A DNA stretch of 64,000 bases from Escherichia phage vB_EcoM_JNE01: the sequence record OR670491; one strand, written 5' to 3'. A program made the position numbers and the translations under genes. This document shows positions 13,462-14,298 of this stretch, one piece after another. The notes below the pieces were generated by a model. It ran no database searches. It was not told the origin of the DNA and saw only the letters and a program-made list of their open reading frames with translations. How positions within the stretch are numbered: position 1 is the stretch's first letter; every line of letters starts with the position of its first letter.

Positions 13462-13506
13462 AGCACCTCTAAATAATGTATATAAACATTAATGAGGTGC
13501 TTTTTT
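13462..13506 (+). promoter_or_regulatory. stem-loop (AGCACCTC/GAGGTGCT) enclosing late-type motif TAAATAATGTATATAAAC and pairing the downstream SD
   Basis: 8-bp inverted repeat; the right arm GAGGTG is the only SD for ATG 13507. Confidence 0.35.
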
Positions 13507-14298
13507 ATGTCTTACGATTATATGGGTGGAAACCCTGATGCTCCGAATTTTGATCACAGAGAAAAACTAAAAGATGTGGTCACACAAATGTTAGGTGCAG
13601 GTGCAGTTGAAGTTGAAATCACTGATGGTCAACTCGAAATTGCAATTGATAATGCTGTTGCTAACTACCGTGCATGGAGTTCAGCTTCTAAAGAAGAAGC
13701 ATTTTTAAATATGAAATTTTACGATTCTCAGTCGGTCTATATGTTACCAACTGAAGTTGAAATCGTTAAAAAAATCTACCGCTATGGTAATGGTTATTTG
13801 AGTTCAGGTAGTGGTAACTCCGTTGACCCATTCTCACTTGCATTCACTAACTCATATTTGCTAACATCTGCTCGTAACGCAGGTGGTTATGACTTAACTA
13901 CTTATGACTTCAGTTTCCAGTTCCAAGAACTAGTGGGTCGTATGTTTGGTCGTGAAATTATATTTCAATTTAACCCAATGACTAAGAAACTAGTTATTGA
14001 CCGTGATATTCGCGGTACTGAAGAAGTACTGTTACACGTTTATCACAACATCCCTGAACCGCTCCTATTCATGCGTCAGATGAGCTATCCGTGGCTTCGT
14101 GACTGGACACTATCTGAAGCTATGATTATGCTTGGTCGTAACCGTGCGAAGTTTGCTACGCTACCAGGACCACAAGGGACATTCTCAATGGATGGTGATA
14201 CACTACGTAATGAAGGTCTTCAATTACAAGAACAGTTGAAAGAACGCTTGAAACGTTACGAAGATGGTGCAGATCCACTAGGTATGATTATAGGCTAA
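13507..14298 (+). CDS. hypothetical protein, probably late/virion-associated
   Basis: ATG with GAGGTG SD; late-type motif upstream; ORF track begins at 13492. Confidence 0.5.
   Translation: MSYDYMGGNPDAPNFDHREKLKDVVTQMLGAGAVEVEITDGQLEIAIDNAVANYRAWSSASKEEAFLNMKFYDSQSVYMLPTEVEIVKKIYRYGNGYLSSGSGNSVDPFSLAFTNSYLLTSARNAGGYDLTTYDFSFQFQELVGRMFGREIIFQFNPMTKKLVIDRDIRGTEEVLLHVYHNIPEPLLFMRQMSYPWLRDWTLSEAMIMLGRNRAKFATLPGPQGTFSMDGDTLRNEGLQLQEQLKERLKRYEDGADPLGMIIG

What the first reader, a model, noticed from the sequence alone, without database searches (positions are those of the whole stretch)
13462..13509. Hairpin that encloses a late-type motif and pairs the only SD of the downstream gene
The 8-bp inverted repeat AGCACCTC/GAGGTGCT flanks TAAATAATGTATATAAACATTAAT, and its right arm is the GAGGTG SD for ATG 13507. 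Folding would occlude the ribosome-binding site, so translation could depend on where transcription starts.
Basis: inference. Interest (0 to 1): 0.35.

Follow-up and report, generated by a model that had tools for sequence, protein, structure and literature searches.

The report
Late-promoter hairpin that hides a ribosome site
In this jumbo coliphage the neck-protein gene is preceded by a deeply conserved RNA hairpin that buries its ribosome-binding site and has a late promoter-like motif inside it, most likely restricting translation to late transcripts as in several phage T4 genes; this rests on sequence comparison and folding only, and no transcript ends have been mapped.

Summary
AGCACCTC (13462-13469) and GAGGTGCT (13494-13501) are an exact inverted repeat. 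The 3' arm holds the only Shine-Dalgarno (SD) sequence, GAGGTG, for ATG 13507 of the neck/head-tail adaptor gene.

The window is an Asteriusvirus-like jumbo coliphage, 98.9% identical to phage Turkey5. Within one genome an 8-nt match is not beyond chance. The comparative evidence decides it:
- All 27 non-redundant relatives, down to 50% neck-protein identity, keep a -17 to -24 kcal/mol hairpin with the SD in the 3' arm.
- The arms change by compensatory substitutions: 6 of 8 pairs, and 0 of 500 shuffles reach the observed score.
- The conserved [C/A]TAAATA next to the 5' arm behaves as a T4-type late promoter. It is depleted window-wide, yet lies upstream of 12 of 51 gene starts, all from 11963 onward. 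The lineage encodes a gp55-like late sigma factor.

The tail-sheath gene (15318-15377) has the same design without a T-run. A weaker copy precedes ATG 11963.

Best reading: read-through early or middle transcripts fold, hide the SD, and here probably also terminate at the U6 tract. Late transcripts start inside the hairpin and are translated. This is a new member of the T4 e/soc/49/I-TevI kind. No transcript 5' ends have been mapped.

The parts
13462..13469 (+). 5' arm of the hairpin (anti-SD), AGCACCTC
   Evidence: It is an exact inverted repeat with 13494-13501. It covaries with the 3' arm across 22 distinct relatives.
13469..13475 (+). CTAAATA, a late-promoter-like element of T4 gp55 type (-10 region). 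It directly abuts the 5' arm.
   Evidence: It is conserved at this position in all relatives as CTAAATA or TATAAATA. TAAATA is positionally enriched upstream of genes from 11963 onward, mostly structural, and depleted elsewhere. The homologous CBB site is listed as predicted late promoter Porf_201.
13474..13491 (+). Inner stem-loop: TAATGT, loop ATATAA, ACATTA. It extends the hairpin. The predicted late start site (about 13480-13483) lies in its loop.
   Evidence: RNAfold minimum-energy structures. The start position is inferred from the T4 rule of about 6 nt after the motif (PMC3014915).
13494..13501 (+). 3' arm, GAGGTGCT. It contains the Shine-Dalgarno GAGGTG (13494-13499) of the neck gene.
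   Evidence: Probability that the SD is unpaired is 0.00 in read-through RNA and about 0.4 in the predicted late RNA.
13501..13506 (+). T6 (U6) tract directly after the stem. It is a possible intrinsic-terminator tail and also the SD-to-AUG spacer.
   Evidence: A run of at least 4 T is present in 21 of 27 non-redundant relatives and absent in 6 that keep the stem.
13507..14298 (+). Neck / head-tail adaptor Ad2 gene (263 aa), the regulated gene
   Evidence: PHROG 211 head-tail adaptor Ad2, E = 1.2e-40. The N-terminus MSYDY is conserved in relatives. The in-frame ATG 13492 is not conserved.
14300..14328 (+). Canonical intrinsic terminator after the neck gene, AAAAAAGACTCC-TTTA-TGGGGTCTTTTTT. It makes the neck gene a single-gene late unit.
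   Evidence: The homologous site is annotated as a terminator in G17, Munch and Muenster.
15318..15326 (+). Second cassette, 5' arm ATCCTCCAA (anti-SD of the tail-sheath gene)
   Evidence: It is a 9-nt perfect complement of 15369-15377, the longest among the 51 gene starts. It is conserved in 18 non-redundant relatives.
15327..15332 (+). Second cassette, TAAATA late-promoter-like motif (AATAAATA)
   Evidence: The homologous CBB site is listed as Porf_204, ATAAATAACATTAT.
15369..15377 (+). Second cassette, 3' arm TTGGAGGAT with the SD GGAGG (15371-15375) of the tail-sheath gene (ATG 15383). No T-run follows.
11908..11954 (+). Third, weaker cassette. CCCTAAAT (11908-15, containing TAAATA 11911-16), inner hairpin GAAGAAC/GTTCTTC (11922-39), then ATTTGGG (11946-52) overlapping the SD GGGAG (11950-54) of an 79-aa gene (ATG 11963).
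   Evidence: In RaK2 the arms are ATCCT/AGGAT, a compensatory change, and the inner hairpin also covaries. The predicted effect on SD accessibility is weaker.

Best explanation
This is a late-gene expression cassette of the phage T4 'gene e / soc' type. Its order is: anti-SD arm, gp55-type late promoter (CTAAATA), SD arm, AUG.

Transcripts that enter from the upstream early or middle genes on the same strand contain both arms. These genes include nudix, glutaredoxin, a macro-domain protein and a Pth-like protein. Such transcripts fold into the -17 kcal/mol two-tier hairpin, which buries the only Shine-Dalgarno sequence of the neck gene. In this phage the stem is followed by U6, so many of these transcripts probably also terminate there.

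Once the phage's gp55-like late sigma factor is active, RNA polymerase starts about 6 nt after CTAAATA, near 13480-13483, inside the hairpin. These RNAs lack the 5' arm, so the SD is free and the neck protein is made only late.

The tail-sheath gene lies downstream of an early-type dNMP-kinase operon with no terminator in between. It carries the same cassette.

Shown here: the hairpin, its conservation and covariation, the position, enrichment and conservation of the motif, the presence of a late sigma factor in the lineage, and the predicted accessibility difference.
Inferred: the transcription start site, the existence of read-through transcripts, and the translational effect.
For: 1. The helix is real and under selection.
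- All 27 non-redundant neck-gene upstream regions fold into a hairpin of -17 to -24 kcal/mol with the SD in the 3' arm. They come from Asteriusvirus, Alcyoneusvirus, Mimasvirus, Eneladusvirus, Munch-like, XaC1-like and metagenomic relatives, down to 50% protein identity.
- Arm pairs seen include GCACCTC/GAGGTGC, GCACCCC/GGGGTGC, GTACCCC/GGGGTAC, AACCCC/GGGGTT, TACCCC/GGGGTA, AATCCTC/GAGGATT, AGCCCC/GGGGCT and ATTCCTCC/GGAGGAAT.
- 87.5% of cells are paired and 6 of 8 pairs change on both sides. No shuffle of 500 reaches the observed score, and slid registers reach at most 55% paired.

2. The hairpin stays attached to the SD, not to the upstream gene. In G17/121Q the 48 nt are identical although about 200 bp of unrelated sequence separate them from the upstream stop codon.

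3. The motif behaves as a late promoter.
- TAAATA occurs 36 times against 85.5 +/- 8.8 expected. TATAAATA occurs 0 times against 6.5 expected.
- Even so, 12 of 51 gene starts have it in sense at -70 to -25, where 0.57 are expected (P = 4e-13). None of these is antisense.
- None of the 17 genes before 11.9 kb has it, against 12 of the 34 after.
- The CBB paper lists the homologous sites as predicted late promoters Porf_201 and Porf_204.
- In Munch-like phages the motif at this position is the exact T4 consensus TATAAATA.

4. The lineage encodes a gp55-like late sigma factor. CBB_244 matches PHROG 234 at 5e-19 and cyanophage gp55 at about 1e-9. Homologs with 74% identity occur in 32 Escherichia jumbo phages, and there is a syntenic gene in Turkey5.

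5. Predicted probability that the SD is unpaired is 0.00 in read-through RNA and 0.35-0.40 in RNA starting 5-8 nt after the motif. The sheath gene gives the same pattern.

6. Termination cannot be the whole story.
- Six of the 27 lineage variants keep the stem but have no T-run.
- The sheath cassette has no T-run in any of 18 variants.
- ARNold-based annotation in G17 does not call a terminator here, the Munch and Muenster records annotate none, and the sequence is absent from the CBB terminator table.

7. The genomic logic fits. The neck and sheath genes are late genes lying directly downstream of early-type genes and sigma70-like promoters on the same strand.

8. The mechanism is established in T4 for genes e, soc, 49, I-TevI, I-TevII, I-TevIII and segB, and for Aeh1 mobE (PMC3014915 and PMC2988022).
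Against: - No 5'-end or RNA-seq data exist for any phage of this group in the searchable literature. The start site inside the hairpin is extrapolated from T4.
- The U6 tail in this phage fits a plain terminator equally well. If termination were efficient, few read-through transcripts would remain to be gated.
- In the sheath cassette the 3' arm is invariant, so there is conservation but no true covariation. One clade has a C-to-G mismatch in the 5' arm.
- The predicted late leader is still partly structured (P unpaired about 0.4, not 1).
- Scanning 100 kb more of Turkey5 found no further perfect G-rich cassette, so this is a gene-specific device and not a general rule.
- The covariation alignment was anchored by me on the closing C-G pair, and the sequences are related by descent. 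The shuffle statistics therefore overstate significance.
Confidence: 0.62

Rival explanations
1. It is a plain Rho-independent terminator ending the upstream early or middle operon. The overlap with the SD and the promoter motif in the loop are side effects of a compact genome and have no translational role.
For: - A GC-containing stem is followed at once by T6, 14 nt after the upstream stop codon.
- 21 of 27 relatives keep at least 4 T after the stem.
- Terminator hairpins also covary, so one search does not separate this rival from the best explanation.
Against: - The stem is kept in 6 lineage variants that lack a T-run: RaK2/Muenster, Hallingskeid, L017, L036, L044 and L045.
- The sheath gene has the same anti-SD, motif and SD design with no T-run at all.
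- The hairpin stays glued to the SD even where 200 bp separate it from the upstream gene.
- Its 24-nt two-tier loop differs from this phage's own terminators, which have 3-7 nt loops and flanking A and T runs.
- It was not called by the scan used here, by ARNold in G17, or in the CBB terminator table.
- The 3' arm always contains the SD at a working distance from the AUG.
Confidence: 0.2
2. The hairpin is present in all neck transcripts because the true promoter lies upstream of it. It acts constitutively, either throttling translation of a low-copy neck protein or stabilising the mRNA 5' region.
For: - The neck protein is needed in few copies per virion (general knowledge).
- No transcription start site has been mapped.
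- SD-occluding stems are a common way to set translation rates.
Against: - The tail sheath, a very high-copy protein, has the same design. Throttling is implausible there.
- No other late-type motif lies between the upstream stop codon and the 5' arm.
- The motif inside or next to the 5' arm is the most conserved element. It is positionally tied to genes from 11963 onward, most of them structural.
Confidence: 0.08
3. The hairpin is an RNase III-type processing site, like the T7 intergenic sites. Cleavage would separate upstream and downstream messages and free the ribosome-binding site.
For: It is an intergenic, two-tier hairpin with an internal loop, in a phage with long polycistronic units.
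Against: - It has only 14 bp in total (8 + 6), or a continuous stem of about 12-16 bp in the GAP32-like, Eneladusvirus-like and XaC1-like forms. This is shorter than typical RNase III substrates of about 20 bp (general knowledge).
- This reading does not explain the conserved promoter motif.
- No Rfam family matches.
Confidence: 0.04
4. The inverted repeat works at the DNA level, as an operator for a dimeric regulator or as a cruciform that helps the late promoter open.
For: The inverted repeat flanks a promoter-like motif.
Against: - The arm sequences differ between the three cassettes in this genome (AGCACCTC, ATCCTCCAA, CCCTAAAT). They also differ between lineages. The only constant is complementarity to each gene's own SD.
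- G-U-compatible substitutions occur in the sheath 5' arm, ATCCTTCA and ATCCTCTA. These preserve pairing in RNA but not in DNA.
- In GAP32-type phages the motif lies inside the stem, so a cruciform would hide it.
Confidence: 0.03

Closest known systems
Phage T4 gene e (lysozyme), soc, gene 49 and I-TevI: a hairpin sequestering the ribosome-binding site, with a late promoter embedded in it
   Same: - The SD is paired in a stable helix in transcripts coming from upstream early or middle promoters.
- A gp55-type late promoter (TATAAATA-like) lies in or next to the DNA that encodes the 5' strand, so late transcripts lack that strand and are translated (PMC3014915 and PMC2988022).
- The regulated gene is a late gene lying downstream of early genes on the same strand.
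- The phage encodes a gp55-like sigma factor.
   Different: - The lineage is different: Rak2-like or Asteriusvirus jumbo phages, only distantly related to T4.
- The promoter core is [C/A]TAAATA rather than TATAAATA. The exact octamer is absent from the window.
- The regulated genes are virion neck and tail-sheath genes, not lysis, decoration, recombination or homing-endonuclease genes.
- Here the stem is also followed by a U-tract, giving a possible combined terminator and translation lock.
- Nothing has been tested experimentally.
Aeromonas phage Aeh1 mobE hairpin that sequesters the ribosome-binding site
   Same: It is a hairpin hiding the ribosome-binding site of a gene embedded in an earlier transcription unit, in a T4-related phage (cited).
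   Different: mobE is a homing-endonuclease gene. There is no sequence relationship to the hairpin described here.
Canonical Rho-independent terminators
   Same: A stem is followed by a U-run shortly after a stop codon.
   Different: - The loop is long and two-tiered, and it carries a promoter motif.
- The SD lies in the 3' arm.
- The T-run is dispensable in 6 lineage variants and absent from the sister cassette at the sheath gene.

Membership tests
T4-type late-promoter-embedded, RBS-sequestering hairpin (e / soc / 49 / I-TevI class) | The SD and/or AUG of the gene is base-paired in a stable helix in RNA that extends upstream | tested here: met
   The 8-bp outer and 6-bp inner stems give -17.1 kcal/mol. 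The probability that the SD is unpaired is 0.00 in read-through RNA. The helix is conserved with compensatory changes.
T4-type late-promoter-embedded, RBS-sequestering hairpin (e / soc / 49 / I-TevI class) | A late (gp55-type) promoter element lies within or next to the 5' strand of the helix | tested here: met
   CTAAATA at 13469-13475 abuts the 5' arm. It is conserved in all relatives and is TATAAATA in the Munch clade. It is positionally enriched upstream of genes from 11963 onward, mostly structural, with P = 4e-13. The homologous CBB site is a published predicted late promoter. This is a motif-level test only.
T4-type late-promoter-embedded, RBS-sequestering hairpin (e / soc / 49 / I-TevI class) | The phage has the late-transcription machinery (a gp55-like sigma factor) that reads such promoters | tested here: met
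   CBB_244 matches the PHROG 234 late sigma factor at 5e-19. Homologs with 74% identity occur in 32 Escherichia jumbo phages, and Turkey5 has a syntenic gene at 187400-188239. The gene lies outside the window.
T4-type late-promoter-embedded, RBS-sequestering hairpin (e / soc / 49 / I-TevI class) | Late transcripts start downstream of the 5' strand (mapped 5' ends) | not testable with these tools
   No 5'-end data for this phage group were found in the literature. The start near 13480-13483 is extrapolated from T4 spacing.
T4-type late-promoter-embedded, RBS-sequestering hairpin (e / soc / 49 / I-TevI class) | Early or middle transcripts read into the gene from upstream | tested here: inconclusive
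   Early-type genes on the same strand and sigma70-like promoters lie upstream, at 10922-10949 and 14333-14346. No terminator lies before the sheath gene. For the neck gene, the hairpin with its U6 tract may itself stop many such transcripts.
T4-type late-promoter-embedded, RBS-sequestering hairpin (e / soc / 49 / I-TevI class) | Translation is repressed on long transcripts and active on late transcripts | not testable with these tools
   Only predicted accessibility is available: 0.00 against about 0.4.
Rho-independent (intrinsic) terminator | A G+C-rich stem with a short loop (about 3-8 nt) | tested here: not met
   The outer stem is 8 bp with 5 G-C pairs, but 24 nt lie between the arms in a two-tier structure. 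The consensus scan did not call it. Neither did ARNold in G17, and the sequence is absent from the CBB terminator table.
Rho-independent (intrinsic) terminator | A U-tract directly 3' of the stem | tested here: met
   T6 at 13501-13506. Across relatives, 21 of 27 have at least 4 T. The 6 without it still keep the stem.
Rho-independent (intrinsic) terminator | Transcript 3' ends map at the U-tract | not testable with these tools
   No transcript data are available.
Curated cis-regulatory RNA families (Rfam 15) | A match to a covariance model at or near the gathering score | tested here: not met
   In 11700-15600 the only hit is a chance match to Phe_leader at 14272-14331, with E = 0.5 and 24.8 bits against a gathering score of 55.

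The most novel reading that the evidence does not exclude
The cassette may be a two-level insulator shared by the whole clade: a late promoter built inside a terminator-like anti-SD hairpin. It would stop early transcripts and also lock the translation of any that read through. This would have let Rak2-like jumbo phages keep late structural genes (neck, sheath and a small 79-aa gene) interleaved with early metabolic genes on one strand, from Escherichia to Xanthomonas phages. Such combined termination, translation lock and internal promoter has not been described as a unit for T4.
Probability: 0.3. Interest if true: 0.55.

Novelty: new member of a known kind. Interest (0 to 1): 0.45.

Why it matters
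It extends a classic T4 regulatory trick to virion neck and sheath genes of an unrelated-looking group of about 350-kb jumbo phages whose transcription programme is essentially unstudied. In that trick, translation depends on which promoter made the mRNA.

It gives three practical things:
- a covariation-supported RNA structure;
- a refined late-promoter motif, [C/A]TAAATA, with genome-wide avoidance elsewhere;
- precise, cheap predictions for 5'-end positions and compensatory stem mutants.

For annotation, it fixes the neck start codon at ATG 13507 rather than the upstream in-frame ATG used in RaK2. It also warns against reading the hairpin as a simple terminator.

Tried and rejected
- A plain MAFFT alignment of the 58-nt upstream regions (A2) put some arms out of register. 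I counted pairs instead on arms anchored at the closing C-G pair (A3). That anchoring is informed by the structure.
- A single-protein scan of IMG/VR found only 121Q. An alignment-based scan was needed.
- In-window statistics alone do not show the 8-nt match to be non-random.
- CTAAATA and TCTAAATA are not over-represented as bare counts. Only position relative to genes and the depletion of TAAATA are informative.
- A generic 'SD window -15 to -5' accessibility screen over all TAAATA-bearing genes was too noisy to single out cassettes.
- A scan of 100 kb more of Turkey5 for perfect G-rich anti-SD cassettes found none.
- The distant relatives PA5oct and Atu_ph07 (neck protein 37-39% identical) lack the design.
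- Rfam gave no family.
- Literature searches found no transcription-start data or promoter description for Asteriusvirus.
- Cruciform or operator and RNase III readings were considered and given low weight, as set out under the rival explanations.

Full report
**What the window is**

Bases 12000-16000 are 98.9% identical to Escherichia phage Turkey5. They are about 81% identical to 121Q, PBECO4, G17 and other Asteriusvirus jumbo coliphages of about 350 kb.

The gene after the finding encodes the neck protein, also annotated as head-tail adaptor Ad2 (PHROG 211, E = 1.2e-40). Further downstream lie a terminator, a small ORF, a dNMP kinase, the tail sheath and two tail-tube genes. Upstream on the same strand are metabolic, early-type genes. 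These are a CCA-adding enzyme, a nudix hydrolase, a glutaredoxin, a macro-domain phosphatase and a Pth-like protein. Sigma70-like promoters accompany them, for example at 10922-10949.

**Checking the observation**

- AGCACCTC at 13462-13469 and GAGGTGCT at 13494-13501 are a perfect 8-nt inverted repeat, 24 nt apart.
- GAGGTG at 13494-13499 is the only Shine-Dalgarno (SD) sequence for ATG 13507.

There are two additions.
- An inner 6-bp stem (13474-13479 with 13486-13491) makes the structure a two-tier hairpin of -17.1 kcal/mol.
- The 3' arm runs into T6 at 13501-13506.

Judged within this genome alone the match is unremarkable. The fold z-score is -2.64. A perfect complement of 8 nt or more to an SD region is expected about 0.9 times among 51 genes, and 2 are seen.

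**Comparative evidence**

I collected the homologous neck-gene upstream region from 12 annotated phages. I added IMG/VR and metagenome loci found with a neck-protein alignment.

All 27 non-redundant sequences, down to 50% protein identity, fold into a hairpin of -17 to -24 kcal/mol with the SD in the 3' arm.

The arms differ between lineages but stay complementary:
- GCACCTC/GAGGTGC
- GCACCCC/GGGGTGC
- GTACCCC/GGGGTAC
- AACCCC/GGGGTT
- TACCCC/GGGGTA
- AATCCTC/GAGGATT
- AGCCCC/GGGGCT
- ATTCCTCC/GGAGGAAT

I counted pairs on arms anchored at the closing C-G pair.
- 87.5% of cells pair.
- 6 of 8 pairs change on both sides, in 26 cells.
- No shuffle of 500 reaches the observed covariation score.
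- Slid registers give at most 55% pairing.

Two caveats apply. The anchoring is informed by the structure, and the sequences share ancestry.

In G17/121Q the 48-nt element is identical, although about 200 bp of unrelated DNA separate it from the upstream gene. The element therefore belongs to the neck gene.

**The enclosed motif**

[C/A]TAAATA directly follows or overlaps the 5' arm in every relative. In Munch-like phages it is the exact T4 late consensus TATAAATA.

In the window the numbers are as follows.
- TAAATA is strongly depleted: 36 occurrences against 85.5 +/- 8.8 expected.
- TATAAATA is absent: 0 against 6.5 expected.
- Yet 12 of 51 gene starts carry TAAATA in sense orientation at -70 to -25, where 0.57 are expected (P = 4e-13). 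None carries it in antisense.
- None of the 17 genes in the early-type part has it, against 12 of the 34 from 11.9 kb onward.

The CBB genome paper predicted ATAAATA or CTAAATA as the late promoter of CBB and GAP32. It lists the homologous neck and sheath sites as Porf_201 (CTAAATATGATATA) and Porf_204.

The lineage encodes a gp55-like late sigma factor. CBB_244 matches PHROG 234 at 5e-19. Homologs with 74% identity occur in 32 Escherichia jumbo phages, and Turkey5 has a syntenic gene.

**The same design elsewhere in the window**

The tail-sheath gene has ATCCTCCAA (15318-26), then TAAATA (15327-32), an inner hairpin, then TTGGAGGAT (15369-77, SD GGAGG), then ATG 15383.
- This is the longest SD complement among all 51 gene starts.
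- It is conserved in 18 non-redundant relatives.
- No T-run follows it, and no terminator separates it from the upstream dNMP-kinase operon.
- Its 3' arm is invariant, so there is no true covariation. The 5'-arm variants are two G-U-compatible changes and one mismatch.

A weaker third copy precedes ATG 11963: CCCTAAAT, then GAAGAAC/GTTCTTC, then ATTTGGG. In RaK2 its arms are the compensatory pair ATCCT/AGGAT.

Other late-promoter-bearing genes inside purely late clusters lack an anti-SD.

**Mechanism**

With a T4-like start about 6 nt after the motif, late RNA would begin near 13480-13483 and lack the 5' arm.

The predicted probability that the SD is unpaired is 0.00 in RNA entering from upstream. 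It is 0.35-0.40 in the late RNA. The sheath gives the same pattern.

This is the mechanism documented for T4 genes e, soc, 49, I-TevI, I-TevII, I-TevIII and segB, and for Aeh1 mobE (PMC3014915 and PMC2988022).

The U6 tail suggests that in this phage the hairpin also terminates part of the upstream transcription. Termination cannot be the conserved core function, for three reasons.
- Six lineage variants keep the stem without a T-run.
- The sheath cassette never has a T-run.
- The ARNold-based G17 annotation and the Munch and Muenster records mark no terminator here, and the sequence is absent from the CBB terminator table.

**Rivals**

- A plain terminator: 0.2.
- A constitutive throttle or stabiliser: 0.08. 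The high-copy sheath protein argues against it.
- An RNase III site: 0.04. The stem is too short, and this reading does not explain the motif.
- A DNA operator or cruciform: 0.03. The arms differ between cassettes and match only each gene's own SD.

**Novelty and verdict**

No Rfam family matches. No paper in the searchable library describes the structure, or any mapped transcription start, for this phage group.

It is a new member of a known kind: a T4 e/soc-type cassette in Rak2-like jumbo phages, with strong comparative support but no experimental data.

Confidence in the full mechanism is 0.62. Confidence that the hairpin is a selected RNA structure occluding the SD is about 0.9. Interest is 0.45.

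Noticed in passing
window 15318-15382: The tail-sheath gene has the same anti-SD, TAAATA and SD cassette (ATCCTCCAA ... 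TTGGAGGAT) with a 42-nt loop containing a small CGAATATATTTCG hairpin. It is conserved across all genera examined and has no T-run.
   Followed up: yes
window 11908-11962: A weaker third cassette precedes an 79-aa gene of unknown function (PHROG 15319), which is followed by a terminator at 12210-12232. Both the outer arms and the inner hairpin covary in relatives. This small gene may be a late or virion gene embedded among early genes.
   Followed up: partly
whole window: The T4 late consensus TATAAATA is completely absent (0 against 6.5 expected). The hexamer TAAATA is depleted 2.4-fold (36 against 85.5 +/- 8.8). This suggests selection against spurious late promoters.
   Followed up: partly
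window 26543-26855: A 313-nt non-coding gap inside the structural module carries two near-identical consensus sigma70 promoters (AAAAAAGTTsTTGACAAG-N-GATGTGATATAATG) and a third TGGTATAAT. Possible small RNAs or strong early promoters lie upstream of the gene at 26856.
   Followed up: no
window 13492-13506: An in-frame ATG at 13492 lies inside the hairpin, has no SD and is not conserved. The corresponding ATG is used as the annotated start of the RaK2 neck gene, which is probably 4 codons too long (5 in the window's own frame).
   Followed up: partly
L002 4446-4663 (G17/121Q group) compared with window 13448-13461: The 121Q-type phages carry about 200 bp of extra non-coding sequence between the Pth-like gene and the hairpin. 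The window phage and Turkey5 lack it.
   Followed up: no
L003 3360-5363 and L011 3355-5358 (RaK2, Muenster): A 2-kb homing-endonuclease gene is inserted between the neck gene and the dNMP-kinase gene in the Klebsiella phages. It is absent from the window.
   Followed up: no
window 18406-19119 and 19207-19983: Two adjacent paralogous tail-tube genes (both PHROG 4542). The second has its own terminator and CTAAATA promoter unit.
   Followed up: no
window 14333-14346, 10935-10949, 29750s, 56630s: A recurrent extended -10 motif, TG(n)GATATAAT or TGGTATAAT, lies upstream of non-structural genes. It resembles the 'divergent RpoD-like' (middle?) promoter class reported for CBB and GAP32.
   Followed up: no
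window 41626-41631 (- strand), upstream of gene 35174-41536: A second TAAATA lies 95 nt upstream of a 2120-aa structural gene. It is preceded by TTCCCT, which is complementary to AGGGAA in that gene's SD region (6 bp, 84-nt loop). This may be a weak fourth cassette or chance.
   Followed up: no
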